This document shows, one piece after another, positions 44,064-60,403 of a DNA stretch of 64,000 nucleotides. Source of the DNA: an uncultured Bacilli bacterium (lineage in GTDB: Bacteria; Bacillota_I; Bacilli_A; RF39; UBA660); NCBI GenBank assembly GCA_944371905.1, contig CALVYA010000002.1, positions 17,303 to 81,302 of the forward strand, given 5' to 3'. Each line of letters begins with the position of its first letter. Positions within the stretch are counted from its first letter, which is position 1. The translations under genes and the position numbers were made by a program. The notes under the pieces are model-generated. The model saw only the letters and a list, made by a program, of their open reading frames with translations, had not been told where the DNA came from and ran no database searches.

Positions 44064-44284
44064 ATGAGAAGAAAAATAATTACTATTGCAGCAATTTTAA
44101 TTATTTTTGTTTTAGCTTCTGCCGTATTATTCAATGCTTTCAAAAAAGAAGAAGAAAATGGACTAACCAAAGTAAAAGTAGCAGAAGTTACTCACAGTAT
44201 TTTCTATGCCCCACAATATGCTGCTATTGCTTTAGGATACTTTGAAGATTATGGAATCGATATCGAGTTAACTTTAGTACCAGG
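44064..44284 (+). pseudogene. ABC substrate-binding protein gene, segment A (codons 1-74)
   Basis: Signal-anchor followed by KVKVAEVTHSIFYAPQYAAIALGYFEDYGIDIELTLVPG (NMT1/THI5-type, COG0715-like). The reading frame runs into element 1 and stops after 5 foreign codons. Confidence 0.85.
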
Positions 44285-44288
44285 TGCT

Positions 44289-44307
44289 ACTAATCTAAAA
44301 AGATAGC
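44289..44307. repeat. left terminal inverted repeat of element 1
   Basis: actaatctaaaaagatagc is the reverse complement (18/19) of 47381-47399. Confidence 0.9.
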
Positions 44308-44308
44308 A

Positions 44309-45709
44309 TCATAATTTAGAAAAATTATAAATAATTTTGATTTGCTTATTTCTACTAATTGTAATTTTATTAATTAAAGAGAATAATAATTCTCTCGTTA
44401 TATAAATATTATCATAAACATTGTTGGTTGACAATTGATTCAGCTTTTTTAACTCTTGTTGTAATTCTTCTCGTTTTAATAAATAAGTTTCTACGTCAAT
44501 AATTTCATTAAGCCTATCTTCATATAAATACTTTAATTTTTTTTCTATTTTTTGTATATCTTGATTATTATTAATATTTCTTTGCTTTAATAATTGGTTA
44601 TTGATTATGAAAGATAAAAAGTTATTGATTCTATTCAAAACAAATTCTTCTAATTTTTGATAATTTATATAATGAGAAGTACAATTACTAGAATTATTTC
44701 GATAGGTATTGCAAGTCATAATATATTGTTTTCTTTTATTGGAATAACTAACCCCTAATAGACTACCACATTCCAAACAATAAACTAAACCTTCTAATAA
44801 TAACTTATTTCGAATAATATGATGTCCTTTTTTTCTTTTTCTAGATTGAATAATTTCAAATAATTCCTCACTAATGATTTTTTCTTGGGTATTATTTATT
44901 ACTACCCATTCTTGCTGATTCCTTTTTATTCTTGTTTTATTTTTATAACTAACATTTGTCCATACATTACTAACTAGGCATCCCGTGTATTCCTTATTAT
45001 TTAAAATATTATATATACTAGAAGCAGTCCATTTTTGATTGGTGGGAGATAAAATATTTTGATTATTTAATTTAATCGCAATCTCTTTATTACTTTTGCC
45101 ATGAAAAGATAAGGAAAAAATTTGTTTAACAATATTAGCTTTATCTTGATCAATAATTAATTTATTTTTATTATTAGGATCTTTTACATAGCCATATGGT
45201 GCTCTACTTCCCAAAAATAATCCTTGTTCTTTCTTAGTTTTCAAAATTGATTTTATTTTTTTAGAAGTATCTTTAGAAACCATATCATTAAACAACGCTT
45301 TAAAGGGTGCTATATCATTATTACCAGTATCATAATAAGTATCAATTCCATCTAAAATTGAAACATATCTAATTTTATTGGTCGGGAAATAATTTTCCAC
45401 ATAATACCCTGTTTTAATATAATCTCTTCCTAACCTAGATAGATCTTTAGTTATAACCATATTTATTTTATTATTTTTTATATCATGTAATAATTGATTA
45501 AAAGCAGGTCTATTAAAATTAGTTCCTGAATAACCATCATCTACATACTCTTTTATCGAACTTAAATTGTGCTCTTTTAGATATCGATAAATCAATTTCC
45601 TTTGATTTTTTATACTCTCACTTTCTTTATTTTTTTCTTTAAATAAATCCTCCTTAGATAACCTAATATAAACTCCTACTTTAAAATTACAATTATTCAT
45701 CATAATCAC
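44309..45709 (-). CDS. large serine recombinase 1
   Basis: N-terminal resolvase domain (VGVYIRLSKED...DDGYSGTNFNRPAF...ITKDLSRLGRD), a recombinase domain and a Cys-rich zinc-ribbon region plus coiled coil. The tracked start is a GTG and two ATGs follow within 4 codons. Confidence 0.9.
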   Translation of the reverse strand: MIMMNNCNFKVGVYIRLSKEDLFKEKNKESESIKNQRKLIYRYLKEHNLSSIKEYVDDGYSGTNFNRPAFNQLLHDIKNNKINMVITKDLSRLGRDYIKTGYYVENYFPTNKIRYVSILDGIDTYYDTGNNDIAPFKALFNDMVSKDTSKKIKSILKTKKEQGLFLGSRAPYGYVKDPNNKNKLIIDQDKANIVKQIFSLSFHGKSNKEIAIKLNNQNILSPTNQKWTASSIYNILNNKEYTGCLVSNVWTNVSYKNKTRIKRNQQEWVVINNTQEKIISEELFEIIQSRKRKKGHHIIRNKLLLEGLVYCLECGSLLGVSYSNKRKQYIMTCNTYRNNSSNCTSHYINYQKLEEFVLNRINNFLSFIINNQLLKQRNINNNQDIQKIEKKLKYLYEDRLNEIIDVETYLLKREELQQELKKLNQLSTNNVYDNIYITRELLFSLINKITISRNKQIKIIYNFSKL

Positions 45710-45785
45710 ATTCTTGCCAATAAGTTTTTAAAATCTCTATAATATCCATATTTCCATATTCTTCAATGATTATATAATCTTTCAT
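45693..45785 (-). CDS. 30-aa acidic mini-ORF upstream of recombinase 1 (candidate accessory or directionality factor)
   Basis: Hand translation: MKDYIIIEEYGNMDIIEILKTYWQECDYDE*. It overlaps the recombinase start. The same arrangement occurs in elements 2 and 3. Confidence 0.4.
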   Translation of the reverse strand: MKDYIIIEEYGNMDIIEILKTYWQECDYDE

Positions 45786-45817
45786 ATTATCAACTCAATA
45801 AAAAATATGCAAAAAAA

Positions 45818-45842
45818 ATATTATTAGAATTTCTAATAATAT
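45818..45842 (-). terminator. terminator between the cargo operon and the recombinase operon of element 1
   Basis: atattattagaa/ttctaataatat palindrome followed by T8 on the minus strand. Confidence 0.55.
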
Positions 45843-46720
45843 TAAGCTTCGTTTTTATTAAATTTATTTCGGAGCATAAAATAATAGATAATCTGAATAG
45901 TACCTATTAATAAAACCACTAAACCATAATTAACAAAAGTACCAAAAATATTTTCTTTTACCAACTGAATCGTTGCTGTTGAATATTCTTCTTCTAAAAT
46001 TAATTTCATAGCAACATTCCCTAATCCGCCAAGAGAGGCAAATACTCCACCAGCTAAAACTGTTGTTACTCCTGTCCAAATAGCAAAACGATAAATTGAC
46101 CATCTAACAATAGCTATGATAGCAATAACTATGATAATCATTACGAATAATACTATTTTAGAACTATCTCCAAGTAAAACGCGAATCACATTCATATCTT
46201 CTTCGTTTATTTCATTCTTCATCTCATCATATGTCGGGAACATATTAGATATTTCGGAAGAATTTTCTTCCACTTCTACTAAGATATTATCATGTTGTTC
46301 TTCCGTTAAAGTGATGCCTAATTCTTGAGCAGTTCGATCTAAAACTTCATCAACTGTTTGTACTATTTTATCAGCTGTAATAATTATTCCTTCTTGTCCA
46401 CTTGATAAATAATGAGCAACATCTCCATAATACTCACTAATTAATGCTTTAAATTCATTAGAATTAATAATTCCATCCACTATTTGGCGATCTATATTAT
46501 TATTATCAGCAATAGTATATAATCTATCCAAACTATCACTATCATTAGTGGTTAAAATTTCTTTCATATCCATATCATTAACAATTGTTGATACATTATC
46601 TTTGCTAATTAATTTAGGACCAATTAATAATCCAATATACATACATATCATTATAAATAATACAAAGCATAAAAATAAACTAACGATTTTTGATATTACA
46701 TCTAACCCTTTATTTTTCAT
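45842..46720 (-). CDS. hypothetical membrane protein (292 aa)
   Basis: One N-terminal TM helix, a soluble acidic domain and 3-4 C-terminal TM helices. It overlaps the upstream acyltransferase gene by 11 nt. Confidence 0.6.
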   Translation of the reverse strand: MKNKGLDVISKIVSLFLCFVLFIMICMYIGLLIGPKLISKDNVSTIVNDMDMKEILTTNDSDSLDRLYTIADNNNIDRQIVDGIINSNEFKALISEYYGDVAHYLSSGQEGIIITADKIVQTVDEVLDRTAQELGITLTEEQHDNILVEVEENSSEISNMFPTYDEMKNEINEEDMNVIRVLLGDSSKIVLFVMIIIVIAIIAIVRWSIYRFAIWTGVTTVLAGGVFASLGGLGNVAMKLILEEEYSTATIQLVKENIFGTFVNYGLVVLLIGTIQIIYYFMLRNKFNKNEA

Positions 46721-47324
46721 TTTGATTCTCCTTTTCTTTTCTATTATTAATAATTAATGTTTTGACCTTATCCATTAATTCATTATTAGCTTCTTCCAAA
46801 GAATTTGTTTTTATTTTATACGGTTTCCCAAAACAAATAGTAATTTGATTTTTCCTAAAAATTTTATATTTACCAGTAATAGAAAATGGCACTATAGTAC
46901 TATTGGTTTTTGAAGCCATAGATACTGCACCAAACTTAAATGGCATAATAACATCCTTCGTTCTATTGAATGTGCCTTCAGGAAAAATACCAATTAATTT
47001 TTGATCTTTTAATACTTTAATAGCTTTTTTCAAGGCTTCATGATCCTTTTGTCTCCTATTAACAGGAATGCAAGCCATGGCTTTAAAAAAAGGGGTTCCC
47101 AGACCTTTAAACAGTTCATCTTTTGCTAAAAAATGAATTGTTCTTTTTGTAGTACAAAACAATAAAGGAATATCCAAAATATTAGTATGATTTCCACAGA
47201 TTACAACAGAACCTTTTTTAGGAATATTTTCATTACCTATGATAGTAGGACGATACACAACTCTAAATAATCCATTGACAATTGGTCTTAAAATTCTATA
47301 TAGTATAGCATCTTTTTTTTCCAC
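46710..47324 (-). CDS. 1-acyl-sn-glycerol-3-phosphate acyltransferase family (PlsC-like)
   Basis: HX4D motif (NHTNILD) and FPEGT motif. Confidence 0.8.
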   Translation of the reverse strand: MEKKDAILYRILRPIVNGLFRVVYRPTIIGNENIPKKGSVVICGNHTNILDIPLLFCTTKRTIHFLAKDELFKGLGTPFFKAMACIPVNRRQKDHEALKKAIKVLKDQKLIGIFPEGTFNRTKDVIMPFKFGAVSMASKTNSTIVPFSITGKYKIFRKNQITICFGKPYKIKTNSLEEANNELMDKVKTLIINNRKEKENQNEK

Positions 47325-47380
47325 ATCTACACCTCTATTAATGATTACATTTATATTATAACACGTTATATTAATTATTT

Positions 47381-47399
47381 GCTATCTTTTTAAATTAGT
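47381..47399. repeat. right terminal inverted repeat of element 1
   Basis: gctatctttttaaattagt. See 44289-44307. Confidence 0.9.
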
Positions 47400-47405
47400 A
47401 GCAGG

Positions 47406-47627
47406 TGCTGATAAAGTAGCAGCAGCAATATTATCAGGTGATATGGATATTGCTTTCTGTGGTAGTGAAGCAACAATATATGTTTACAATGGTGGAGAAA
47501 AAGACTATTTAAAAACTTTTGCCCAATTAACACAAAAAGATGGAAGTTTTCTAGTTTCTAGAGAAAAAATTGACAATTTTACTTTAGATGATCTACGTGG
47601 TAAATATGTAATTGGAGGTCGTGCTGC
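47406..47627 (+). pseudogene. ABC substrate-binding protein gene, segment B (74 codons)
   Basis: ..ADKVAAAILSGDMDIAFCGSEATIYVYNGGEKDYLKTFAQLTQKDGSFLVSREKIDNFTLDDLRGKYVIGGRA. It is in frame with segment A once element 1 is removed. Confidence 0.85.
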
Positions 47628-47661
47628 CCTTCGGTTTTTATATGATAATTTTTTTAAGCAC

Positions 47662-49254
47662 TTAATCGGTGCTTAGCTCATTTATTAATAAATTAGGGTC
47701 TTTAATTTTATAATTTATTGTTATTTCTTTATTTTGTGTAATCATTATACTATCTATAATACAAGCAATTAAGTTTTTACTTGGTTTTCTTAATCTTAAA
47801 AATTCTTTAACTATACTTGTATAATCATTATTAGGCTTCATTTTGTTTTCTATTATCTCAAGTTGTGTTTCTAATTCTTTTAATTTTAATTGATTACTTA
47901 ATATATCGTTTATTATTTGATTATTAAAGTCTTTGTATTCTTCAAGTGTAATTACCTCATCTATTTTATCAAAGTAGATTTTATTTTTTCTTTTATTAAG
48001 TTTTTCTATTTCTAGATTACAAGAATTAATTTCTCCTTTTATTTTTTCTTTAACTTTGTTTCTTTTAGAAGCGTTTTTTAGTAGATTTTCAAAGTTAGTA
48101 CTATCCACATACTTCTTACACATTTCTCTTATTTCCCTTAATACTTCTTTTTCCAATTTTTGATAATTCATGGTATGAGGAGTACATACCTTAAACTTAC
48201 TATGCTTTTGATAATATGTACACCCTGTATATGCTCTATCTTCTGTTCTTTTTGATATTGAAATAGAGTGTCCGCATTCACTACAATATAAAAAGCCTCT
48301 TAACAAATAATTTGTTGAGTTATTTTGCTGATGTTTGTTCTTTTTATAGACTTGTTGTACTATATCAAACATTTCTTTATCTATTATAGGCTCATGTGTA
48401 TTTTCTATAACAATCCAACTAGATTTAGGAGTTCTTATTTCTTTTTTTATCTTATAATTAATAGTTTTTCTTCTTCCTTGACATAGATTTCCTATATATG
48501 TAGGATTACATAACATTTCATCTATTGTTCTTGAACACCACAAACCATAAGAAGAAGATTTAACACCACGATTTAAATTAGCATATACACTAGGTATTGG
48601 AATACCCTCTTTAGATAAAGTATCTGCTATCACTTTACAACTCATACCATCATAAGCCATTTTAAATATTCTTCTAACTATTGGCGCTACTTCTTCATCT
48701 ATAACTAATTTATATCTATCATTTTCATCTAGTTTATAACCATATACTGCTTTCCAACCAAGAAACTTGCCTTCTTCTTTTTTACTTCTTAAACTTCTTC
48801 GTACTTTTTTTGAAGTGTCTTTTGCATATTGGTCATTAAAAACTGCTTTAAATGGTGCTATATCATTACTGACACTATCTAGGTATGTATCTATATCATC
48901 TAATATGGCAATATATCTTACATTATGTTGTGGAAAGTATTTTTCCATATATTCCCCAGCTTTGATGTAATCTCTACCAAGTCTAGAATAGTCTTTTGTG
49001 ATAACACAATTTATTTTTCCACTTTCTATATCTCTTATCATTCTATTAAAAGAAGGTCTATCGAATGTAGTTCCACTTACACCATCATCTACATATTCAT
49101 CATATATTTTAAAGTTTTCTTTTTGCTTGTTAATGTAATCTAGTATTATATTTCTTTGATTCGAGATACTTTCACTCTCTATTTTATTTTTATCTTCATC
49201 TTCTCTTGATAAACGAATATAAGAACCAACATTATATATTTTATCTTGTTCCAT
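47662..49254 (-). CDS. large serine recombinase 2 (paralog of recombinase 1)
   Basis: VGSYIRLSREDEDK...DDGVSGTTFDRPSF...ITKDYSRLGRDYIKAG. The start was chosen at MEQDK after a ggagg RBS. It is collinear with recombinase 1. Confidence 0.9.
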   Translation of the reverse strand: MEQDKIYNVGSYIRLSREDEDKNKIESESISNQRNIILDYINKQKENFKIYDEYVDDGVSGTTFDRPSFNRMIRDIESGKINCVITKDYSRLGRDYIKAGEYMEKYFPQHNVRYIAILDDIDTYLDSVSNDIAPFKAVFNDQYAKDTSKKVRRSLRSKKEEGKFLGWKAVYGYKLDENDRYKLVIDEEVAPIVRRIFKMAYDGMSCKVIADTLSKEGIPIPSVYANLNRGVKSSSYGLWCSRTIDEMLCNPTYIGNLCQGRRKTINYKIKKEIRTPKSSWIVIENTHEPIIDKEMFDIVQQVYKKNKHQQNNSTNYLLRGFLYCSECGHSISISKRTEDRAYTGCTYYQKHSKFKVCTPHTMNYQKLEKEVLREIREMCKKYVDSTNFENLLKNASKRNKVKEKIKGEINSCNLEIEKLNKRKNKIYFDKIDEVITLEEYKDFNNQIINDILSNQLKLKELETQLEIIENKMKPNNDYTSIVKEFLRLRKPSKNLIACIIDSIMITQNKEITINYKIKDPNLLINELSTD

Positions 49255-49324
49255 TTTACCTCCAATCCAAAGTAAAATATATATGTTTATTAACACATAT
49301 ATTATACCATTTTTATCCTTATTT

Positions 49325-49441
49325 TTAAAGGCTTTGTGATATTTCTAACTCATAAAATTCGTAGTAATATTCGAGTAAAAATTTTTCTATTATTTCTTGT
49401 AAATCTTTACCATCTTTATTAAAAGTACTTGTTATTTTCAT
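49325..49441 (-). CDS. 38-aa mini-ORF upstream of recombinase 2
   Basis: Hand translation: MKITSTFNKDGKDLQEIIEKFLLEYYYEFYELEISQSL*. It is co-directional and acidic. The EIIEKFLLEY stretch loosely resembles DIIEILKTYW of mini-ORF 1. Confidence 0.4.
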   Translation of the reverse strand: MKITSTFNKDGKDLQEIIEKFLLEYYYEFYELEISQSL

Positions 49442-49737
49442 AAATTCACCTATTTAAACTTATGCCGACATAAATTGTTTTATTAAATCCTTTCTTTGCT
49501 TAAGCAACTTTAGAATACCAATAATCAAAAAATCTTTCTTTTACAAAAAACAAAATAAAGTGTTATATTTTTACAAAATTAAAACCTTTATTTTATAAGG
49601 GCTAAAGGTACTTTTACAACCGATTTTTCGAGTAGAAAGTCAGTTTTTAGACATATTTTAATATTAAAAAAACTTTGTTAAGATGAAATCACAAGAGCAA
49701 GGAACCAACTCTTGAAAATATGAAAGGAGAATAAAAG

Positions 49738-49965
49738 ATGGTAGTAGATGATTATAAAATTAAGTTAGAAATCATAAAACTTTCTATTATGAAACACACA
49801 GGAAGAGAAATCAGCGAAGAACTATTGAATAAGTTTTGTAAATATTTAACTATGGAATATGAAAATAATTCATCTAAAAATAGTATTGATAATCGTATCA
49901 ATAGTATTTGTAGAACTATTACTATAAAATACGATAAATATATGAGAATTATCAATGCTAACTAA
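49738..49965 (+). CDS. hypothetical protein (75 aa)
   Basis: Good RBS (gaaaggag). No motif recognised. Confidence 0.5.
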   Translation: MVVDDYKIKLEIIKLSIMKHTGREISEELLNKFCKYLTMEYENNSSKNSIDNRINSICRTITIKYDKYMRIINAN

Positions 49966-50056
49966 TTTAAGTTTATTTAAACCCAAATAAACTTAATTAA
50001 ACTTATAAATAAGTCATTTAGGATAAATGCTTATTGCTTTGTATTATATTTCCTTA

Positions 50057-50082
50057 AAAGTGATAAAAAATATCACTTTTTT
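50057..50082 (+). terminator. rho-independent terminator
   Basis: aaaagtgata/tatcactttt stem followed by a T-run. Confidence 0.6.
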
Positions 50083-50145
50083 CGTTTTAGGGGCAGACAA
50101 GAGGTTCCAACAAACTATATAATACATAGCCAAGGAGATGAAATT

Positions 50146-51300
50146 ATGGGAAAAAAACATAGAACTTTAAATGATACTATCTTTAGAAATAGTAAATATA
50201 TAGAGGTGGTAAATAAACAAGTCGGTTGTGATGACTTTAAAAAAGAGTGCCAAAATCCTAATTCTCAATATAAGGGTCAATATGATTTTATGTTGGAAAC
50301 TTTTAAAACTCTTATTTCACTTTATAATTGTTTTTATAGTGATAGCAACTTATCATTTCTTGAAAAAGTAGAAAATGCTATAAATATTATGGAAGAATAC
50401 ATTTATAAAGATTACGAAGTTGATAAGAAAAAATATAGTGTTAGATTTATTCAAAGTGTGAGTGATAAATATAGCACATATCTATATAGAAAAATAAGTA
50501 ATGATGAAACAGGTTGGTATGTTATATTAGATGATATAGATTCTAAAGAAATAAATACCTCTCCCATAGCTAAAAATGTTATAAAAGAAATTGAAGAAGA
50601 AATGACAAAACTTGAAAATATAGGCTTTGATGATATGGTCAAAGGCTCTATTGCTTATAAAAAAAATAAAGATAGTGATTACAAAATCTATATAAGTAAG
50701 TTTGACAGTTTAAATACAAAGCAAGAACAATTTATAGAGGAATTTAGTACTAAATACAACGAAAGCCATATAACTCCCTTAAATGATAATGAACTGACTA
50801 ATATAGCCTTAATTTATAACCTTGTAGCAAAAGTTAATAATGGCATAGTAAAAGTTCTTTCAAACAAACCAAATAAAAACTATAACTTAAATGAAAGGTC
50901 AACCCCTAGCAACTATTACAAGGCTTATCTTGATAGTTTAAATATTAGTATTGATGATAGTTTCTTTACACTTAATGCTAATGCTTTTATGATGAATGTA
51001 ATTATCACTTATTCTAATTCTTGCGGAGCAAAAGGCTTATCTCTAAATGATATGATAAATAATTTTGATATGTATTACTTTCTTGATAAAATAGAAAATT
51101 CCGTAGTCAAAAAAAATCTTTCAGTTAGTGATGAAAGAATACAAAAAATAATTTTAGACTTGAAACAAATTTATAACATTATTACAACAAAAAATAATGG
51201 ACTTGATGAATTATTTAATAATTTTAAAAGAGCCAATGAAATAATACTAAATATTATGAGCCGAGATAATAACTTAAATTATTATATAAGAGTTAGTTAG
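50146..51300 (+). CDS. hypothetical protein (384 aa), unknown-function cargo
   Basis: RBS aaggag. No Walker, nuclease, HEPN or other motif is visible. It is translationally close (8 nt) to the next gene. Confidence 0.6.
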   Translation: MGKKHRTLNDTIFRNSKYIEVVNKQVGCDDFKKECQNPNSQYKGQYDFMLETFKTLISLYNCFYSDSNLSFLEKVENAINIMEEYIYKDYEVDKKKYSVRFIQSVSDKYSTYLYRKISNDETGWYVILDDIDSKEINTSPIAKNVIKEIEEEMTKLENIGFDDMVKGSIAYKKNKDSDYKIYISKFDSLNTKQEQFIEEFSTKYNESHITPLNDNELTNIALIYNLVAKVNNGIVKVLSNKPNKNYNLNERSTPSNYYKAYLDSLNISIDDSFFTLNANAFMMNVIITYSNSCGAKGLSLNDMINNFDMYYFLDKIENSVVKKNLSVSDERIQKIILDLKQIYNIITTKNNGLDELFNNFKRANEIILNIMSRDNNLNYYIRVS

Positions 51301-51308
51301 GAGAAAAA

Positions 51309-52073
51309 ATGAATAAATTTAATGTTATGAAAATATTAGAAAAACAACAAAAAGAAAAAGAATTATTACATAAAGATTTAGAAAAAGAAGAATATTTGAA
51401 AAAAGTTTATAGTTTCATAGATGATTATGTTAAGCCACTACTTGAGAAAACAACTAATAATATAACCTATGGCTTTACTGACGATTTTGATACATTTATC
51501 TTATCAAAGAAAGTTGAAGATTTGCTTATTTATACGATAAAAATATTAGACTTAATTGGGAATAATATGTTCAAAGATATAGAGGAACCCCAACTTTTGC
51601 AAAATGCTTTGCTTAATGAAGAAATAGGTTTTTTAAACAAAGATAAAAAAATAAAGAAACAAGTAGCAACAAAATTATGTGGTTATATAACAAAAAGATT
51701 ATCTTATGAAGATAACTTGAATAATTATGTTGATGAATATATAAAACCTATGTTTATTAAGTTAGGCAAAGAAAATAAAATTGTTTTCGATTTAAACTCT
51801 AAAGATGAGAATAAATTGCTTATCTCTAATAACACAATAGAGTTATCAAAATTAGGTGTTTGTGAGAATACTATTATAAGTTTAGTTTTTCCTTTTACAA
51901 AAAATAATTATGATGAGAACACATTAAGGCATTTAGACTTTCTTTTTAATAATGATACAGAAATAAAACAAGAGTTTGCCGATTATTTAGTTAATACTTT
52001 TGTAGAAAGATATAACGAGATAGATTTTATCAATGTAAAAAAATTTAACCTTATAAACATATTAAAAGAGTGA
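51309..52073 (+). CDS. hypothetical protein (254 aa), unknown-function cargo
   Basis: RBS aggag. No motif recognised. It forms an operon with 50146..51300. Confidence 0.6.
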   Translation: MNKFNVMKILEKQQKEKELLHKDLEKEEYLKKVYSFIDDYVKPLLEKTTNNITYGFTDDFDTFILSKKVEDLLIYTIKILDLIGNNMFKDIEEPQLLQNALLNEEIGFLNKDKKIKKQVATKLCGYITKRLSYEDNLNNYVDEYIKPMFIKLGKENKIVFDLNSKDENKLLISNNTIELSKLGVCENTIISLVFPFTKNNYDENTLRHLDFLFNNDTEIKQEFADYLVNTFVERYNEIDFINVKKFNLINILKE

Positions 52074-52100
52074 TAAAAGATTTTATTCTTTATCACTCTT
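52066..52100. terminator. bidirectional terminator shared by convergent genes
   Basis: 12-bp stem aagagtgataaa/tttatcactctt overlapping both stop codons. Confidence 0.65.
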
Positions 52101-52340
52101 ATTTTTTGTATTTTCTTTAAATAATTCGGCTATATCTATATCAAGTACAAGAGCTAACCTCCAAAGTGTTCCAAGTGAAAATGTTTGATGATTTTTACTT
52201 TCTATATTAGATATAAATTGTGTTGAATACCTCATTTTATTGGCTAATTGTTCTTGTGTAAGTCCTTTTAGTTGTCTTTGCTTTTTTATGTTCTTTGATA
52301 CTACTTCATATATATAGTTTTCATCATCTCTTTTAAACAA
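52083..52340 (-). CDS. XRE-family HTH transcriptional regulator
   Basis: LKGLTQEQLANKMRYSTQFISNIE... Confidence 0.85.
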   Translation of the reverse strand: MFKRDDENYIYEVVSKNIKKQRQLKGLTQEQLANKMRYSTQFISNIESKNHQTFSLGTLWRLALVLDIDIAELFKENTKNKSDKE

Positions 52341-52415
52341 TTATACCACCACCTAACACTATTAATATTTTCTCAAAAATAGCACTGAATATACTTACTC
52401 TATTCGCGTAAGTTG

Positions 52416-52424
52416 TGGTATAAT
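52416..52424 (+). promoter_or_regulatory. extended -10 promoter element, divergent from the XRE gene
   Basis: TGGTATAAT, with a weak -35 (ttactc) about 17 nt upstream. It points into a 470-nt ORF-free AT-rich tract. Confidence 0.45.
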
Positions 52425-52891
52425 AGTTTATAAGAAAGGAGTTTATAATTCTTAAAAGAAAAGAAGTTTGATGTGTTTATATGGAATAATATTATTAAAG
52501 GTTTATGACCGTGAAAATAATTATTAAAGTGAAATAGTATAAAATAATTATGAGTAAGAAGATATAAGTTATAATACTCGACATTCAACTATTGATTTCA
52601 CTTACAATATGGATATAGAAAATAATTAAGTTGATTTTTACTTAATAATGATACTTACAAATTAAAATATGATAAAAAAATAAATGTTTAATTGATGAAA
52701 AATAAAATATTATATGTAATTATTTATAGATAAACTATGATAGCTTTGATAAAATTAATTAATATTGTGTTATAATTAATATGTAATGCATTTTTTTATT
52801 TTATTTTTATATAGCAATAAGTTAATTTGATTAAAAGTATGCTTGTACAGGTATTTTTAATATAGATGTATAGAAGTGAAAGGAGGTTTTT

Positions 52892-53245
52892 ATGGAAACA
52901 AAATTTTGTGAAAATTGTGGTAATAAAGTTGCTATCGATGCAGTGATATGTCCAAAATGTGGCAGACAACTTGAAGAACTTAAAACAGAAGAAAATAAAT
53001 CAAATGCTTCGCAAGTAATTATTAACAATTCAAACATTGTTGATGGAGGATATAAAAAAAAACAATGTGATAAATGGATAACTTTATTATTATGTATATT
53101 TTTAGGAATATTTGGTGGTCATAAATTTTATGAAGGTAAAATTGGATTAGGTATTTTATATATTTTTACTTTTGGACTTTTTGGAATAGGTATATTAGTA
53201 GATTTTATAGTAATTTTATTTAGACCTAATCTTTATTATGTATAA
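52892..53245 (+). CDS. zinc-ribbon plus TM2-domain membrane protein
   Basis: FCENCGN..CPKCG followed by ...LLLCIFLGIFGGHKFYEGKIGLGILYIFT.. (TM2 domain pattern). Confidence 0.75.
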   Translation: METKFCENCGNKVAIDAVICPKCGRQLEELKTEENKSNASQVIINNSNIVDGGYKKKQCDKWITLLLCIFLGIFGGHKFYEGKIGLGILYIFTFGLFGIGILVDFIVILFRPNLYYV

Positions 53246-53259
53246 TAGGAGGAAATAAG

Positions 53260-54111
53260 ATGGAAGAAAAAAAGTTTTGTAAATTTTGTGGTGAGAAGAT
53301 TGATAAAGATAGTATTGTATGTCCAAAATGTGGCAGACAACTAAAACTTGTAAAAAATGAAATTAATGAAAAAAAGATAAATAATACACAAGAAAATGAA
53401 ATAAAATTTTATCAGCAACAGTGGTTTATGTGGATTATGTTAGTGTTTTTTGCACCAGTTGGAATATTTCTTATGTGGAAATTCAATGATAAAATGAAGA
53501 AAAATATTAAAATAATACTAACAGTAATATTTTCTATTTTCTTTATAATAGTAATATCAAGTAGTAGTTCTAATGATGTTAATGAGAACGGAACAAAATA
53601 TGAAACTAATAAAAAAATAACTGTTGAAATAGTAGATTTCAGTAATATGACAACTGCCGAAGTTGATAATTGGTGCAGTGAAAAAAAAGTTAATTGCAAA
53701 AGAGTTGAAGAATATAATGACACTATTGAAAAAGGTAAATTTGTAAGTCAAAGTATTGAAAGTTCAAAAACAATTTATGAAGGAGAACAAATAACAATAG
53801 TTTATTCGCTTGGAAAGGAACCAACAGTTAGCCAAAAAAATGCAGTAAAAAAAGCTGAATCATATTTAGATTATTCTGCTTTTTCAAGAAATGGTCTAAT
53901 TAAACAATTAGAATTTGAAGGTTTCTCAAATGCTGATGCAACATATGCTGTTGATAATATAATTGTTGATTGGAATGAACAAGCAGTGAAAAAAGCTAAA
54001 TCATATCTAGATTATTCTGCTTTTTCAAGAAATGGTTTAATTAAACAATTAGAGTTTGAAGGTTTTACTTACGAACAAGCAGTATATGGCGTTGAACAAA
54101 ACGGATTATAA
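53260..54111 (+). CDS. zinc-ribbon/TM/PASTA-like protein with two Ltp-type repeats (superinfection-exclusion-like)
   Basis: FCKFCGE..CPKCG, one TM helix, a PASTA-like segment (ITVEIVDFSNMTTAEVDNWC...GEQITIVYSLG), then two copies of AVKKA.SYLDYSAFSRNGLIKQLEFEGF. Confidence 0.7.
   Translation: MEEKKFCKFCGEKIDKDSIVCPKCGRQLKLVKNEINEKKINNTQENEIKFYQQQWFMWIMLVFFAPVGIFLMWKFNDKMKKNIKIILTVIFSIFFIIVISSSSSNDVNENGTKYETNKKITVEIVDFSNMTTAEVDNWCSEKKVNCKRVEEYNDTIEKGKFVSQSIESSKTIYEGEQITIVYSLGKEPTVSQKNAVKKAESYLDYSAFSRNGLIKQLEFEGFSNADATYAVDNIIVDWNEQAVKKAKSYLDYSAFSRNGLIKQLEFEGFTYEQAVYGVEQNGL
53842..54066 (+). repeat. intragenic direct repeat (two 84-bp copies, period 141 bp)
   Basis: 53842-53925 and 53983-54066 differ at only about 6 positions. 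They encode the two Ltp-type repeats. Confidence 0.85.
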
Positions 54112-54182
54112 AATAAAAGAGTATATAATCAATTATATGCTTTGTTTTAATCTATTTACACAAAACTACACAAAATTAGAGA

Positions 54183-54237
54183 AAAGTCTTTGATAACCTA
54201 CTATATATATGAGGAGGTGTTACTATCAAAGACTTTT
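54183..54237 (+). terminator. 14-bp-stem hairpin plus T-run; terminator and/or translational control of the next ORF
   Basis: aaaagtctttgata (54183-96) pairs with tatcaaagactttt (54224-37). The 27-nt loop holds the gaggagg RBS. TTTTTT follows. Confidence 0.5.
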
Positions 54238-54395
54238 TTACTTTAAAAGATGCTTGTAAGATTATAAATATATCTTATAAAACACTTTATAGTTGGGTTA
54301 AAAATAATGAAGTATCTTACACTAAAATTGGTAATAGATATTATATGACACAAGAGCAAATCAATGCTCTTGTTTTTGTTTATAACAAATCATAG
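54225..54395 (+). CDS. excisionase-type (HTH_17/MerR-like) DNA-binding protein, apparent non-canonical ATC start
   Basis: Hand translation: IKDFFTLKDACKIINISYKTLYSWVKNNEVSYTKIGNRYYMTQEQINALVFVYNKS*. A GGAGG lies 7 nt upstream. There is no ATG, GTG or TTG in frame after the preceding stop. Confidence 0.5.
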   Translation: MKDFFTLKDACKIINISYKTLYSWVKNNEVSYTKIGNRYYMTQEQINALVFVYNKS

Positions 54396-54476
54396 TTTTG
54401 TATTGCTTAAAAACTTAACACAAGCCACGATATAATATTAAAATCAAATTGTAAAAATTAAATAAGGAGGAAAAAA

Positions 54477-55274
54477 ATGTATAGCATATATCAAAATAGA
54501 TATGCCAATAAATTACACTTAAATATTATAAAAGTTAAATATTCAAAGGAACATACCTTACTTGAAAGAGATTTTAGCATTAAATTAAGTGATGATTACA
54601 ACGATTTAGCAAACGACTTAATAACATACAAATTATATCTTTATTTAGGTAGTTTACTAAGTCAAAATGCTTTAAGAAATGAAATACTAACACTTGATAC
54701 AAAAGCCTTTCTAAATGCCTTAAAAACAACTAAAAAGGCTTATATTATATCATCGCTTGAATATTTAAAAGCCATAAGGTTTAAATACTACTATTTTAAA
54801 GGTAAGAAGAACAACAAAGGCTATATCAAAGAAATAAGAAATTGTAGTATTATTGATGATTATTCTTCTTCAAAAGGTAGTATAACAATTAGATTTAATA
54901 AAGATTATTTAACCTTACTTGGTTATAGTAGATTAACCTTACAACTACCTAACGAGCTATTTACTATGAATATAACAAAATATCATCATAGTTTATTTAT
55001 GGGAGTTCGTATCTTATTACATAGACAAGTGAATTTTAATAAGAAACAAAGAAATGTTATATCAGTAAAAGAAATAACAAAATATTGTCCTTTACTCCCT
55101 TGTTATGATGATTTAAACGAAAGTAAGCAAGTATCAAGAAATATATTAGAGCCATTTAAAAAAAATATGGACTTTATGTGGGAAATACTTAATTTTACTT
55201 GGAAGTATGAAAATGAGCTAACTACATATAACTCATTTATAAATAATAAAATAATCTTTGAGTGTAGAAATTAG
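54477..55274 (+). CDS. putative replication initiator (Rep-like, winged-helix)
   Basis: The call rests on its position directly upstream of a DnaB-C-like ATPase and an AT-rich palindromic region, plus general resemblance to RepB/Rep_3-type proteins. It is weak. Confidence 0.35.
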   Translation: MYSIYQNRYANKLHLNIIKVKYSKEHTLLERDFSIKLSDDYNDLANDLITYKLYLYLGSLLSQNALRNEILTLDTKAFLNALKTTKKAYIISSLEYLKAIRFKYYYFKGKKNNKGYIKEIRNCSIIDDYSSSKGSITIRFNKDYLTLLGYSRLTLQLPNELFTMNITKYHHSLFMGVRILLHRQVNFNKKQRNVISVKEITKYCPLLPCYDDLNESKQVSRNILEPFKKNMDFMWEILNFTWKYENELTTYNSFINNKIIFECRN

Positions 55275-55390
55275 AGCAAAGTTTAGCAGATTTTGAGTTT
55301 TGATATGTAGATGACATTTGTTAGAAACACTTATAAATCAATACTTTTTGAGATGTTTATTTCCTTAAATATAATAAGTATATTATATAT

Positions 55391-55417
55391 AGCACTCACT
55401 CTTTAAAGAGTGGTGCT
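55391..55417. promoter_or_regulatory. 27-nt palindrome followed by a (TA)n tract: candidate origin or terminator
   Basis: agcactcactcttt/aaagagtggtgct, then tatatatatata. It lies in the 265-bp gap between the Rep-like and helicase-like genes. Confidence 0.35.
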
Positions 55418-55540
55418 TATATATATATAACTTAATTTTTACAATAAAAAAAAACTATAAAACTCATATAGAGTATATTATATTCTACTTATAATAGTAA
55501 GAACAATATATGTATATAAAAATTTTAGAAGGAGAAAAAA

Positions 55541-56368
55541 ATGCTGACTATAGATGAATATAAAAACTATATAACTAATGAAAACAATGTAAGAAAAATA
55601 CCAACTAACTTTAGCAAATTAGATAATATATATGGTGGAGGTTTATCAAAAGGACTAACCATTATTGGTGCTAACACTGGCTTAGGCAAAACAACTTTTG
55701 TCTTACAACTTGCTGATAATGTAGCACAACAACCTAACACAAAAGTTTTATTCTTTTCTATGGAATTAACTAAATATGAGTTGGTGTCAAAGTCTTTAAG
55801 CCGATTATCTTATTTAGATAACAACTTAACTAATCATACACCTAATGATTTTATAAGTAATGGTGTTGATGATTTGGATACTTATTATAGTCATTATGAG
55901 CCAATGGGAAATAATGTTTATATAGTTGATAATATTAGAAGTATTATGAAAATATCTAAAACTATTTACGACTTTTGTAATGAGTTTGAAAATGACAAAG
56001 TTGTTGTTATTATTGATTACATACAATTTATAAATTGTAATGGAAGCAACGATAAGCAAAATGTTGATATAATCACACGAGAACTTAAAGCACTTGCCAA
56101 TAATTACAATATACCTATTGTGGCAATTAGTAGTTTAAGTCGTGAGGGTGCTAAAAGAAATGATATATCATCATTTAAGGAAAGTGGTTCAATAGAATAT
56201 ACCGCTGATTATTTAATTATTATGTATCAAAAGCAAAATAATAGAGAGTTGGCTTTTACTGATGATACTGATACTATAACAGTTCAGTTTCTAAAAAATA
56301 GATTTGGAGTAAAAGGACAATTTGATTTAAAGTATATTGGAAATTATGCAACATTTAAGGAACTTTAA
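55541..56368 (+). CDS. DnaB-helicase C-terminal-domain-like (RecA-fold) ATPase
   Basis: Walker A GANTGLGKTT, Walker B VVVIIDYIQ, ...ISSLSREG... Confidence 0.75.
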   Translation: MLTIDEYKNYITNENNVRKIPTNFSKLDNIYGGGLSKGLTIIGANTGLGKTTFVLQLADNVAQQPNTKVLFFSMELTKYELVSKSLSRLSYLDNNLTNHTPNDFISNGVDDLDTYYSHYEPMGNNVYIVDNIRSIMKISKTIYDFCNEFENDKVVVIIDYIQFINCNGSNDKQNVDIITRELKALANNYNIPIVAISSLSREGAKRNDISSFKESGSIEYTADYLIIMYQKQNNRELAFTDDTDTITVQFLKNRFGVKGQFDLKYIGNYATFKEL

Positions 56369-56385
56369 CGAGTTCCTTTTATTTT
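56357..56385 (+). terminator. terminator overlapping the ATPase stop
   Basis: aaggaact/agttcctt stem followed by ttatttt. Confidence 0.5.
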
Positions 56386-56491
56386 GGGAAAATATTTTAG
56401 TCGTTTAATTTTAGGGCAACCCATTGATATAAAAAAAGTAGTAGAAAAAGTTATTTAACTTAGCCCCTACTACAAGGAGGAATAAAAAATT

Positions 56492-56677
56492 ATGAAACAA
56501 AGATTTTTAACACTTGTAGAGGTATGTGATAGCCTACATACTTCTATTGGGTATATAAAGAAACTAATTGATGAGGGAAAAATTAAGGCTATTAAATCAT
56601 CAAAAAATTACTTAATTAGTGAGTTTGAATATTTAAAACTAATTGAGTTTATGGAGGTACAGCATAATGAAAAATAA
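56492..56677 (+). CDS. excisionase-family HTH protein
   Basis: FLTLVEVCDSLHTSIGYIKKLIDEGKIKAIK. Confidence 0.6.
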   Translation: MKQRFLTLVEVCDSLHTSIGYIKKLIDEGKIKAIKSSKNYLISEFEYLKLIEFMEVQHNEK

Positions 56678-56975
56678 TAAAATAAGTATAGATTTAGATA
56701 TTGAGGACTTATTAGGTATTAAGGAAACAAGCAAAGATAGTTTAGAATATGATTTAGAGTTTATAATCAATAATGGTTATGATGAATATATCAAGCAACA
56801 AGAAGAACACAACAAAAAGAAACAAGAATTTATAGAACTATTTAAAGAGTGTTATGATGAGTTATGCATTTTTATGGAAAAAGACCCTAAACAAAGAGTT
56901 GCTATATCTTGCTTTACTTGTATCAAAGGTATGGACTTATCTAAACAATATGGTAAGCCAAAAAAAGATAAGTAG
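56667..56975 (+). CDS. hypothetical protein (102 aa)
   Basis: The start was chosen at MKNNKISIDL after a ggagg RBS. No motif recognised. Confidence 0.5.
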   Translation: MKNNKISIDLDIEDLLGIKETSKDSLEYDLEFIINNGYDEYIKQQEEHNKKKQEFIELFKECYDELCIFMEKDPKQRVAISCFTCIKGMDLSKQYGKPKKDK

Positions 56976-57005
56976 TTAAATGATAACTTGCTTATCTTTC
57001 TTTTT

Positions 57006-57254
57006 TTATTGTTTCATTATTTCATTATAGAGTATTATTTGTTTCTTATTGTTCTTTTGAAACTCCCTTCTAAAATCTTTTTGTAATTTTTCAAAATGAT
57101 TATATAAAAGTCCTCTTTCTTTATCAGTAAACTTACTATCTTCTTTTAGGCTTTCTTCTAACATTTGATGAACTACTAGCATTTCTATCATTGTATTATT
57201 CATTTTTTCAGTTAAGTTAAATCTTAACTCATTTATATTTGTACACTTTTTCAT
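57006..57254 (-). CDS. hypothetical coiled-coil protein (82 aa)
   Basis: The internal ATG (MKKCTNINELRF) has an agagg RBS. The longer tracked ORF runs into the element end and is unlikely. Confidence 0.45.
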   Translation of the reverse strand: MKKCTNINELRFNLTEKMNNTMIEMLVVHQMLEESLKEDSKFTDKERGLLYNHFEKLQKDFRREFQKNNKKQIILYNEIMKQ

Positions 57255-57411
57255 TTTATACCTCTTTCTTATAATTAGATTTGTTAATAAACACATAATT
57301 TTACCCTTATTGTACCTTGATTTTTTATATTTGTTATCACTATTAACCCAAAGGGGGGGTCGGTGTATCGGTAGTAACATTTTTTTAGTTATCACTTTTG
57401 ATGAGAAAAGC

Positions 57412-57558
57412 CGGAATGCCCGAAATGACCTTTGAATGGGCCTTAAGAGAAGCAGGCATTGATCCCAAAAATGATTTAACTATTGATACTAGTATTGAAT
57501 TTGCTTCTATGGGAGGAGCATTTATTAGTGGTATTGGAGATTTTGTTACTTTATTTGA
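57412..57558 (+). pseudogene. ABC substrate-binding protein gene, segment C (49 codons)
   Basis: ..GMPEMTFEWALREAGIDPKNDLTIDTSIEFASMGGAFISGIGDFVTLFE. It is in frame with segment B after removal of element 2. Confidence 0.85.
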
Positions 57559-57625
57559 ACAAAGTGTTACAAAAAATAATATTCATAAAAAAAGATTTAA
57601 CCATACGATTAAATCGAATTTTTGT

Positions 57626-58546: not shown

Positions 58547-58595
58547 ATATATACCTCCTATGTACTATATGCAATTAAACAAACAATGATATTAT

Positions 58596-60185: not shown

Positions 60186-60186
60186 A

Positions 60187-60339
60187 TTAATTACCTTCTT
60201 TGCTATATGTTAATTTATATAATTGTTTTAAAATATTTTCCTCTGTGCTTCTAAATATTTTATATGTAATTAAATCATCATCAAATAATTCTTTATTAAT
60301 AGAAAGAGCTAATTCCAAAATTAATTTATTATAATTCAT
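60187..60339 (-). CDS. 50-aa mini-ORF upstream of recombinase 3
   Basis: Hand translation: MNYNKLILELALSINKELFDDDLITYKIFRSTEENILKQLYKLTYSKEGN*. Its stop abuts the recombinase start. Confidence 0.4.
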   Translation of the reverse strand: MNYNKLILELALSINKELFDDDLITYKIFRSTEENILKQLYKLTYSKEGN

Positions 60340-60403
60340 GTATATCCCTCATTTAAATCTATGATTTAACATACTTTTTATTTCCTATTGTTACATTAAG
60401 TGA

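What the first reader, a model, noticed from the sequence alone, without database searches (positions are those of the whole stretch)
44281..47409. Element 1 junctions rebuild a 48-bp near-perfect palindromic attP centred on a GG dinucleotide
The element-side sequences are actaatctaaaaagatagc (44289-44307) and gctatctttttaaattagt (47381-47399), which are 18/19 inverted repeats. Joining the element ends gives gctatctttttaaattagtagca-GG-tgctactaatctaaaaagatagc. The 23-nt arms are 22/23 complementary around a non-palindromic central dinucleotide. That is exactly the architecture expected for a large-serine-recombinase attP with a 2-bp crossover. The inferred attB (tttagtacca-GG-tgctgataaa) is a weaker dyad whose half-sites resemble the attP arms. 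This is unusually clean evidence that the element is intact and excision-competent rather than a decayed scar.
Basis: seen in the sequence. Interest (0 to 1): 0.65.

Follow-up and report, generated by a model that had tools for sequence, protein, structure and literature searches.

The report
Serine-recombinase element splitting a transporter gene
A 3.1-kb mobile element carrying its own large serine recombinase sits inside a transporter gene of a gut bacterium, and its two ends join into a textbook, almost perfectly symmetrical recombination site; this is a clean but ordinary example of a known kind of element.

Summary
Joining the two ends of Element 1 (44285-47405) gives a 50-bp site whose arms match at 23 of 24 positions around a GG. 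GG is the only one of the seven dinucleotides in the shared 8-bp junction core (CAGGTGCT) that gives any symmetry. Chance expectation is about 1e-11.

The element encodes an intact large serine recombinase (LSR1, 464 aa), a 30-aa mini-ORF and two cargo genes. Removing it restores the reading frame of an ABC-transporter binding-protein (SBP) gene.

Comparison with relatives supports function:
- The same element sits at the same GG in six lineages (recombinase 66-100% identical).
- Within the close family, 21 of 24 arm positions never vary.
- The most distant relative has different arms, and eight positions changed together on both arms.
- LSR1 has dN/dS of 0.12-0.19.
- The element is more diverged than its flanks.

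No empty site or excised circle was found in any assembly, so excision is inferred, not shown.

This is a new member of a known kind: a site-specific serine-recombinase integrative element whose closest characterised relatives are TnpX and TndX. The more unusual context is that three such elements split this one gene, and the operon is a recurrent landing zone in related species.

The parts
44064..44284 (+). Host SBP gene, part 1 (codons 1-74, up to and including the crossover GG). As it stands the ORF runs on into the element and stops at 44306 (80 aa).
   Evidence: The 80-aa product is on 20 public contigs.
44260..44308 (.). attL: the host-derived B half-site (to 44282), the GG (44283-44284) and the element-derived P' half-site (44285-44308).
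44283..44284 (.). Left copy of the inferred 2-bp crossover GG.
   Evidence: The only dinucleotide of the shared 8 bp that gives a dyad. It lies within the 4-bp GGTG overlap of the L104 lineage.
44285..44308 (-). Left attP arm (read on the - strand: TGCTATCTTTTTAGATTAGTAGCA). It directly abuts the LSR1 stop codon.
44309..45703 (-). LSR1, a large serine recombinase of 464 aa as called in public assemblies (466 aa from the upstream GTG).
   Evidence: Pfam Resolvase, Recombinase and Zn_ribbon_recom. TnpX catalytic domain, E=4e-24, with the RLS serine motif aligned. dN/dS 0.12-0.19.
45693..45785 (-). 30-aa acidic mini-ORF that overlaps the LSR1 start by 11 nt. It is a candidate directionality factor, untested.
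   Evidence: Conserved at 63-83% in four lineages. No homologue outside the E1 family among the loci held. Absent from the short-recombinase variant.
45809..45843 (-). 12-bp A/U hairpin followed by a U-run, between the cargo genes and the mini-ORF/LSR1 module. It looks like a terminator.
   Evidence: -9.2 kcal/mol, z = -1.7, not significant alone. A hairpin plus T-run of different sequence sits at the same place in L104.
45842..46720 (-). Cargo: a 292-aa protein matching no Pfam or NCBIfam family; it looks like a membrane protein from hydrophobic stretches in its sequence (not tested with any tool).
   Evidence: dN/dS 0.14-0.26.
46710..47324 (-). Cargo: a PlsC-type acyltransferase of 204 aa.
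   Evidence: PF01553, E=4e-30. TIGR00530. dN/dS 0.095.
47355..47363 (-). Extended -10 box (TGTTATAAT) for the cargo operon, just inside the right arm. A -35 would overlap the outer arm motif.
   Evidence: Read directly from the sequence. Not picked up by the consensus scan. Inference only.
47380..47403 (+). Right attP arm, TGCTATCTTTTTAAATTAGTAGCA.
47404..47405 (.). Right copy of the inferred crossover GG.
47380..47429 (.). attR: the P half-site, the GG and the host-derived B' half-site.
47406..47628 (+). Host SBP gene, part 2. It ends at the left junction of Element 2.
47629..57412 (.). Context: Element 2 (9784 bp), with LSR2 at 47662-49254 on the - strand. It is absent, leaving a precise empty site, in same-species contigs L042 and L044.
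57413..57560 (+). Host SBP gene, part 3.
57561..60405 (.). Context: Element 3 (2845 bp), carrying an SDR gene (57626-58546) and LSR3 (58596-60185). Its joined ends match at 15/24 around GA.
60406..60806 (+). Host SBP gene, part 4. With all three elements removed the gene is a clean 330-aa NMT1-type ORF.
   Evidence: Intact 330-aa homologues at 87% identity.

Best explanation
Element 1 (44285-47405, 3121 bp) is a small, site-specific integrative element driven by a large serine recombinase. It entered the SBP gene by recombination between a 50-bp, nearly palindromic attP and an attB inside the codons for V-P-G-A-D-K.

The proposed mechanism runs as follows. LSR1 dimers bind the two hybrid sites attL and attR. 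Each hybrid site has one 24-bp P half-site and one weaker B half-site. The P half-site has an inner motif ATTAGTAGCA at positions 1-10, a variable T-rich linker, and an outer motif TGCTATC at positions 18-24. The sites are cut with a 2-nt stagger at the central GG, the subunits rotate, and the ends are rejoined. This releases a 3.1-kb circle carrying attP and restores the SBP reading frame. Because GG is not palindromic and reads the same way at both ends, the outcome is deletion, not inversion.

Shown here: the site architecture, the complete recombinase, the in-frame restoration, the conservation and co-variation of the arms, and purifying selection.

Inferred: that excision and integration actually occur today; that the cut is at GG; and whether a directionality factor is needed. 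On the last point, the 30-aa mini-ORF is a candidate, but TndX is reported to be sufficient for both integration and excision (title of ref. 31 in PMC4430133).
For: - Dyad of 23/24 only at GG; chance about 1e-11; the arm motif occurs only at the two ends.
- LSR1 has all three LSR domains and the aligned serine motif.
- Excision restores the ORF, and removing all three elements gives a 330-aa SBP that is 87% identical to intact homologues.
- The same element, with the same gene order, sits at the same GG in the window species (20 contigs) and in lineages whose recombinase is 85%, 76%, 72% and 66% identical.
- Seven arms from five lineages keep 21 of 24 positions invariant; variation is confined to positions 11, 12 and 17.
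- The 66% lineage has different arms with a 20/24 dyad about the same GG. Eight positions changed in concert on both arms, and its junction overlap is only GGTG.
- dN/dS is 0.12-0.19 for LSR1 at dS 0.58-0.96, 0.10-0.26 for the cargo genes, and 0.04-0.085 for the split SBP.
- Identity drops from 88-100% in the flanks to about 78% inside the element, exactly at the junctions. The element therefore has its own history.
- A neighbouring LSR element in the same gene (E2) is present or precisely absent within the species.
- The architecture matches the published model of a 25-bp attP half-site and the general rule of a symmetric attP about a central dinucleotide.
Against: - No empty attB and no attP circle junction was found. 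There is no intact SBP above 87% identity among 5.8 billion clustered proteins.
- The three hypothetical products of an E1-empty allele are absent from 15 billion sequences, while the occupied 80-aa fragment is on 20 contigs.
- Scans of JGI metagenomes and IMG/VR for the att cores gave only chance hits.
- No recognisable directionality factor is present, and the mini-ORF is missing from the short-recombinase variant.
- The element has no replication, mobilisation or phage genes and matches no known plasmid or phage. How it moves between cells is unknown.
- The predicted 5-bp inward shift of the outer motif in attB is visible only as TGCT in one half-site (inconclusive).
Confidence: 0.75

Rival explanations
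1. The element is a fixed, no longer mobile insertion. It integrated once in an ancestor, is inherited vertically, and no longer excises. The palindrome is then only the unerased footprint of a past integration.
For: Every contig of six lineages has the site occupied, and no empty site or circle was found. No directionality factor or transfer function is recognisable.
Against: - At dS of 0.6-1.0, an unused 1.4-kb ORF and two unused 24-bp sites should have decayed. Instead LSR1 has dN/dS 0.12-0.19, the arms are 21/24 invariant, and they changed in concert on both sides in the distant lineage.
- The split SBP gene is still under strong purifying selection (0.04-0.085). That is hard to explain if the gene is never reassembled.
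- The element is more diverged than its flanks, which argues against simple co-inheritance.
Confidence: 0.12
2. The element is a regulated gene switch, not primarily a mobile element. It has been kept in the SBP gene for a long time and excises on cue to reassemble the transporter gene, in the way skin, SPbeta and gin elements do in sporulation genes, or the fdxN element does in heterocysts.
For: - The element is always at the same codon over about 14% PcrA protein divergence and is never seen empty.
- The split gene is under purifying selection.
- The recombinase and att sites are conserved.
- Non-phage intervening elements with a serine recombinase and a small accessory factor are known (PMC5595907).
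Against: - The interrupted gene is a transporter component, not a gene specific to a terminal cell type, and nothing shows that this organism differentiates.
- Three independent elements would all have to leave to restore the gene.
- The greater divergence of the element than of its flanks, and the presence/absence polymorphism of the neighbouring E2, fit ordinary mobility better.
- Insertions also hit the ATPase and permease genes of the same operon in relatives. This looks like a tolerated landing zone.
Confidence: 0.1
3. The element is a DDE-type transposon or insertion sequence, with terminal inverted repeats of about 19 bp and an 8-bp target-site duplication (CAGGTGCT).
For: Taken at face value, the ends show an 8-bp direct repeat next to inverted repeats.
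Against: - There is no transposase. The only recombinase is an LSR.
- The inverted symmetry runs through the 'duplication' (tgct/agca) to a GG centre.
- The host half-sites resemble the element arms.
- The shared core is only 4 bp in the L104 lineage.
- Diverged variants all sit at one and the same position. That is site-specific integration, not transposition.
Confidence: 0.02

Closest known systems
Phage serine integrases and their attP/attB sites (A118/LI integrase, Bxb1, phiC31)
   Same: The domain set is Resolvase + Recombinase + zinc ribbon, and the size (464 aa) is close to that of LI integrase, whose C-terminal construct ends at residue 452. attP is about 50 bp with two roughly 25-bp pseudo-palindromic half-sites around a non-palindromic central dinucleotide. 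attB is weaker and shares the dinucleotide. The conserved inner and outer motifs are separated by a variable linker, as in the RD / linker / ZD contacts described in PMC3783163.
   Different: The element is not a phage: it is 3.1 kb with no phage genes and no match in the phage collection. Its arms are more symmetric (23/24) than I recall for the classical attP sites (from memory, not tested). The 5-bp inward shift of the ZD motif in attB is not clearly visible. Sequence similarity to phiC31 integrase is marginal (E about 5e-4).
TnpX / TndX large resolvases of the clostridial transposons Tn4451/Tn4453 and Tn5397
   Same: These are the closest characterised relatives. The TnpX catalytic domain (2mhc) matches at E=4e-24, with the same insertion between the RLS and NQ motifs. 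TndX is 37% identical over 85% of the protein. These are small or non-phage elements that excise as circles. TndX is reported to be sufficient for integration and excision (title of ref. 31 in PMC4430133).
   Different: TndX targets always have a central GA and, in some hosts, many sites. E1 uses GG and a single site in all contigs. LSR1 lacks DUF4368, the domain typical of the multi-targeting TndX-like clade (Durrant et al. preprint). E1 has no mobilisation gene of the kind I recall Tn4451 carrying (from memory).
Gene-intervening elements excised by serine recombinases (B. subtilis skin and SPbeta, B. cereus gin; fdxN element with XisF)
   Same: These interrupt a coding sequence and restore it precisely on removal. 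They use a serine recombinase whose site has an inverted repeat about a central dinucleotide lying within a short sequence shared with the host gene (9 bp in gin, 8 bp here). The gin element is non-viral and uses a small accessory factor, GirX.
   Different: The host gene here is a transporter binding protein, not a sporulation or heterocyst gene. No developmental programme is known for this organism. E1 is far smaller (4 genes against 31 in gin). Three separate elements interrupt the one gene. The NCBIfam XisF and Ccr models match far below their cut-offs.
Catalogued site-specific LSR elements (Durrant et al., large-scale LSR/att discovery)
   Same: The logic is the same: related LSRs down to 66% identity all integrate into one target gene family, which meets that study's criterion for a site-specific LSR, and LSR1 has the typical three-domain architecture.
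   Different: I could not check whether this LSR and att pair is already in that catalogue. The window's proteins are in NCBI, ENA and Logan without any name.

Membership tests
Large serine recombinase (serine integrase) integration system | A recombinase with an N-terminal resolvase catalytic domain carrying the serine nucleophile, a recombinase domain and a zinc-ribbon domain | tested here: met
   PF00239, PF07508 and PF13408 all score above their cut-offs. YIRLS aligns with YERLS of TnpX. Four cysteines are seen in the ribbon region of the sequence.
Large serine recombinase (serine integrase) integration system | An attP of about 50 bp: two half-sites of about 25 bp in inverted orientation around a non-palindromic central dinucleotide | tested here: met
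   24-nt arms match at 23/24 around GG, and no other centre works. This compares with the 25-bp half-site in PMC3783163.
Large serine recombinase (serine integrase) integration system | An attB that shares the central dinucleotide, with weaker, related half-sites | tested here: met
   Both junctions carry GG. The attB dyad is 8 of the inner 12 positions, and the half-sites match the inner P motif at 8/10 and 7/10.
Large serine recombinase (serine integrase) integration system | The zinc-ribbon (outer) motif lies about 5 bp closer to the centre in attB than in attP | tested here: inconclusive
   The outer motif TGCTATC sits at positions 24-18 in attP. In attB only the right half-site has TGCT at positions 19-16, and the left has nothing comparable (arms, read by eye).
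Large serine recombinase (serine integrase) integration system | attP x attB integration and attL x attR excision actually occur, with empty sites or circles observable | tested here: not met
   No attB or attP was found in any assembly or protein collection searched. This is absence in assemblies only; read-level data and biochemistry cannot be tested with these tools.
Large serine recombinase (serine integrase) integration system | Half-sites co-evolve with the recombinase, because both arms are read by the same protein | tested here: met
   Between the window-type and L104-type elements (recombinase 66% identical), 8 arm positions changed identically on both arms, 11 stayed the same and 5 are asymmetric.
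TnpX/TndX-like multi-targeting (transposon) LSR clade | A DUF4368 domain, present in most members | tested here: not met
   No PF14287 hit in LSR1. Criterion.
TnpX/TndX-like multi-targeting (transposon) LSR clade | A central GA dinucleotide and several or many target sites | tested here: not met
   The centre is GG. There is one target position in more than 30 contigs of six lineages. GA rule.
TnpX/TndX-like multi-targeting (transposon) LSR clade | Close sequence relationship of the catalytic domain | tested here: met
   2mhc (TnpX) is the best PDB match at E=4e-24. TndX is the best annotated plasmid match at 37% identity.
Developmentally excised gene-intervening elements (skin, SPbeta, gin, fdxN element) | The element interrupts an ORF and its precise removal restores it | tested here: met
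   In silico removal restores the frame; all three removals give a 330-aa ORF.
Developmentally excised gene-intervening elements (skin, SPbeta, gin, fdxN element) | The host gene is needed only in a terminally differentiated cell, and excision is developmentally timed | not testable with these tools
   The host gene is an NMT1-type ABC-transporter binding protein. No expression or developmental data are available.
DDE transposon / insertion sequence | A transposase gene, and terminal inverted repeats flanked by a target-site duplication that is not part of the repeat | tested here: not met
   No transposase is present. The inverted symmetry runs through the shared 8 bp. The shared core is 4 bp in another lineage.

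The most novel reading that the evidence does not exclude
The E1 family may be a long-resident genetic lock on a nutrient-transporter gene in a gut Bacilli lineage, not just a passenger. The SBP gene is kept split by up to three independent serine-recombinase elements and is reassembled by excision. The 30-aa mini-ORF would act as an unusually small directionality factor. This would explain why the site is never seen empty, while the split gene, the recombinase and the co-evolving att arms all stay under purifying selection.
Probability: 0.1. Interest if true: 0.7.

Novelty: new member of a known kind. Interest (0 to 1): 0.35.

Why it matters
The finding gives a compact (464-aa) serine recombinase with a fully defined, highly symmetric attP/attB pair and a natural second specificity variant at the same attB. 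That material could be used to study how half-site recognition co-evolves with the protein, and it is a candidate tool for genome engineering. Biologically, it shows that an ABC-transporter operon in uncultured gut Bacilli is a recurrent landing zone for serine-recombinase elements: three in one 1-kb gene here, and others in the ATPase and permease genes of relatives. It leaves open whether such split genes are still used.

Tried and rejected
- Scanned the species-representative genomes for LSR1 relatives. The best were only 41-57% identical, the two closest looked frameshifted, and none carried the arm motif. This was no use for the att sites.
- Scanned JGI metagenomes and IMG/VR with a degenerate core matching attL, attR, attP and attB. 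All 29 hits were chance matches in unrelated DNA.
- Searched for an intact, same-species SBP using the rebuilt 330-aa protein and its first 153 aa. Nothing was above 87% and 83% identity respectively.
- Looked up the three hypothetical products of an E1-empty allele by exact sequence. All were absent.
- Searched plasmids and phages with the whole element. There was no meaningful match, so no vehicle was identified.
- Searched all held loci with an HMM of the mini-ORF. It was found only in the E1 family, so it cannot be linked to any known directionality factor.
- Tested for the 5-bp inward shift of the outer motif in attB. The result was inconclusive.
- The consensus promoter and terminator scan was barely above background in this A+T-rich DNA and is not relied on.
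- The 49-aa 'members' of the LSR1 cluster are unrelated sequences, not junction fragments.
- The transposon reading (terminal repeats plus an 8-bp duplication) was considered and rejected; see the rival explanations.

Full report
**The observation.** The host gene on the + strand starts at 44064 and is broken at ...TTAGTACCA-GG-TGCTACTAATCTAAAAAGATAGCA. It resumes at TGCTATCTTTTTAAATTAGTAGCA-GG-TGCTGATAAAGT... Joining the element ends gives a site whose arms match at 23 of 24 positions counted outward from a central GG.

The two junctions share 8 bp (CAGGTGCT), so the sequence alone allows seven crossover dinucleotides. Only GG gives a dyad: 23/24, against 6-10/24 for the others. The same centre gives the best, weaker dyad for the rebuilt attB. 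The binomial chance of such a match is about 1.5e-11. The best of two million random joins within the window was 20/24. The 24-nt arm motif occurs only twice in 64 kb, at the two ends. The ends are also the longest inverted repeat found in the region. Excision at GG restores the frame ...ELTLVPGA|DKVAAAILSG.

**What the element contains.** All genes are on the - strand.
- A PlsC-type acyltransferase lies at 46710-47324.
- A 292-aa protein matching no known family lies at 45842-46720. Hydrophobic stretches in its sequence suggest a membrane protein (read by eye, not tested).
- A 30-aa acidic mini-ORF (45693-45785) overlaps the recombinase start by 11 nt.
- LSR1 (44309-45703, 464 aa) has its stop codon directly against the left arm.

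LSR1 has the Resolvase, Recombinase and zinc-ribbon domains. Its best solved relative is the TnpX catalytic domain (E=4e-24), with the serine motif aligned. Its best annotated relative on plasmids is TndX, at 37% identity. It lacks DUF4368, the domain typical of the multi-targeting TndX-like clade. There are no phage, replication or mobilisation genes, and the element's DNA matches no known plasmid or phage.

**The surroundings.** The interrupted gene encodes an NMT1-type substrate-binding protein (SBP) of an ABC transporter. The ATPase and permease genes follow at 60808-62338. The gene is split three times:
- Element 1: 3121 bp.
- Element 2: 47629-57412, 9784 bp, carrying LSR2.
- Element 3: 57561-60405, 2845 bp, carrying LSR3 and an SDR gene.

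Removing all three precisely gives a clean 330-aa ORF. That ORF is 87% identical to intact homologues in related metagenome-assembled genomes (MAGs), some of them labelled Bacilli bacterium.

Same-species metagenome contigs, identified by an identical PcrA protein, show Element 2 either present or precisely absent. Serine-recombinase mobility is therefore live in this gene. Element 3's joined ends match at 15/24 around GA. Element 2's symmetry is weak.

**Comparative test of Element 1.** All 20 contigs that carry the identical LSR1 have the element in the same place with identical att sites. Orthologues at 85%, 76% and 72% identity, and a lineage about 88% identical at the DNA level, carry the same genes in the same order at the same position. 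Seven arms from these five lineages read TGCTATC[T/A]TTTT[A/G][A/G/C]ATTAGTAGCA. The inner ten and outer seven bases never vary. This pattern fits the contacts reported for a serine integrase on a 25-bp attP half-site: recombinase domain, then linker, then zinc-ribbon domain (PMC3783163).

A more distant relative gives the strongest evidence. Its recombinase is 66% identical and only 386 aa, it has no mini-ORF, and its host's PcrA is 86% identical to the window's. It sits at the very same GG. There the junction overlap is only GGTG, and the dyad (20/24) is again centred on GG. Its arms differ from the window type at eight positions that changed identically on both arms, while the outer TGNTATC is kept. 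Concerted change of the two half-sites is what is expected if one protein reads both. It is the best evidence here that the symmetry is functional.

**Selection and history.** For LSR1, dN/dS is 0.12-0.19 at dS 0.58-0.96, and for the cargo genes 0.10-0.26. For the split SBP fragments it is 0.04-0.085 at dS of about 0.4. That is as low as for the intact homologue (0.07) and close to PcrA (0.045). Between the window and L067, identity is 88-100% in both flanks and drops to about 78% inside the element, with the step at the junctions. So the element has a history of its own, through repeated integration or replacement of variants at one attB. In the lineages compared, a pseudogenised host gene cannot have sat there for long.

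The nearest lineage with an empty site (L061-L063) has synonymous changes in the left attB half-site, TTAACCCCT-GG-AG in place of TTAGTACCA-GG-TG.

**What is missing.** I found no empty attB in any lineage that carries the element, and no attP circle junction. Excision is therefore inferred, not observed. No known directionality factor is present. The mini-ORF is conserved only in the long-recombinase lineages and has no detectable relatives. TndX is reported to be sufficient for both integration and excision (title of ref. 31 in PMC4430133), so LSR1 may not need a directionality factor. How a 3.1-kb element with no transfer genes moves between hosts is unknown.

**Most likely mechanism.** LSR1 dimers bind attL and attR, cut with a 2-nt stagger at GG, rotate and rejoin. 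This yields attB, which restores the SBP gene, and a circle carrying attP. The reverse reaction integrates the circle. Because GG reads the same way at both ends, and the flanks are otherwise close to mutual reverse complements (I1), the central dinucleotide alone sets the outcome to deletion and not inversion.

The rivals are as follows.
- A fixed, inactive insertion (confidence 0.12). It is contradicted by selection on the recombinase, the arms and the host gene.
- A regulated gene switch of the skin/gin type (0.10). It is not excluded, but there is no developmental context, and the operon looks like a general landing zone.
- A DDE transposon with terminal repeats and an 8-bp duplication (0.02). 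It is rejected because there is no transposase, the symmetry runs through the 'duplication', and all variants occupy one site.

**Comparison with known systems.** In its workings the element is a standard serine-integrase att system (PMC3783163; PMC5595907 states the general rule of a symmetric attP about a central dinucleotide). By sequence it is nearest to TnpX and TndX, but it fails that clade's hallmarks of DUF4368, a GA core and many targets. By the one-target-gene criterion of Durrant et al. it counts as a site-specific LSR. As an interrupter of a coding sequence it resembles the skin, SPbeta and gin elements, but its host gene is a transporter component and it has only four genes.

**Verdict.** This is a new member of a known kind. 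The near-perfect symmetry and the comparative evidence make it an unusually clean example, not a surprising one. Two things are somewhat unusual. One gene is split by three serine-recombinase elements. And the transporter operon is repeatedly hit across related species: the SBP gene is cut at the Element 2 and Element 3 positions in many MAGs, and the ATPase and permease genes are cut in others. Interest is 0.35.

Noticed in passing
window 44064-60806 (E1 44285-47405, E2 47629-57412, E3 57561-60405): One 990-bp SBP gene is split by three separate serine-recombinase elements. Removing all three precisely gives a clean 330-aa ORF that is 87% identical to intact homologues.
   Followed up: yes
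window 47629-57412; L042, L044: Element 2 (9.8 kb, LSR2) is present in some same-species contigs and precisely absent in others (junction ...GGTCGTGCTGCC|GGAATGCCC...). It is therefore polymorphic in the population. Its joined ends have only weak symmetry (12/24 at GC, 10/24 at CC).
   Followed up: partly
L097/L098 (GCA_965311905.1), L100-L102, L061-L063, L103 (GCA_017435255.1): In related Bacilli MAGs the SBP gene is cut at the E2 position (fragments of about 150-157 aa, next to an LSR 48% identical to LSR2) or at the E3 position (fragments of about 200-216 aa). The permease (215 aa) or the ATPase (197 aa) gene of the same operon is cut by yet other LSR elements. The whole operon is a recurrent landing zone.
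   Followed up: partly
L103-L105, recombinase gene at L104:3604-4764: A widespread short form of the E1 recombinase (384-405 aa, 57-71% identical) lacks about 80 C-terminal residues after the zinc ribbon. In the one lineage examined it also lacks the mini-ORF, yet it sits in an otherwise similar element with a symmetric attP of different sequence. Whether it can still control directionality is unknown.
   Followed up: partly
window 45809-45843 (- strand): A 12-bp A/U hairpin followed by a U-run separates the cargo genes from the mini-ORF/LSR1 module. A hairpin plus T-run of different sequence occupies the same place in L104. It looks like an internal terminator, but its folding z-score alone is only -1.7.
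   Followed up: partly
window 47355-47363 (- strand): An extended -10 box (TGTTATAAT) lies just inside the right att arm and faces the cargo genes. A -35 would overlap the outer arm motif, so recombinase binding could interfere with cargo transcription. This is read from the sequence only.
   Followed up: no
window 57561-60405: Element 3 is a second mini-element with the same logic: LSR3 plus one cargo gene, an SDR that hits the enoyl-ACP-reductase Pfam family. Its joined ends match at 15/24 around GA, the dinucleotide reported for TndX targets. The cargo genes of E1 and E3 are both lipid-related enzymes.
   Followed up: partly
window 43621-43968; L042, L044, L047, L049: Between the SBP gene and pcrA, strains with an identical PcrA carry either a 115-aa gene (as in the window) or a different 77-aa gene. 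The 115-aa gene is 97-98% identical between lineages whose PcrA genes are only 90% identical (measured for L065), which suggests recent recombination in the flank.
   Followed up: no
window 27219-33344 (- strand): A 2041-aa ORF with faint RHS-repeat and weak YD-shell Pfam hits (precomputed annotation), next to a Gp10_C-domain protein. It is possibly a polymorphic toxin locus and is unrelated to the finding.
   Followed up: no
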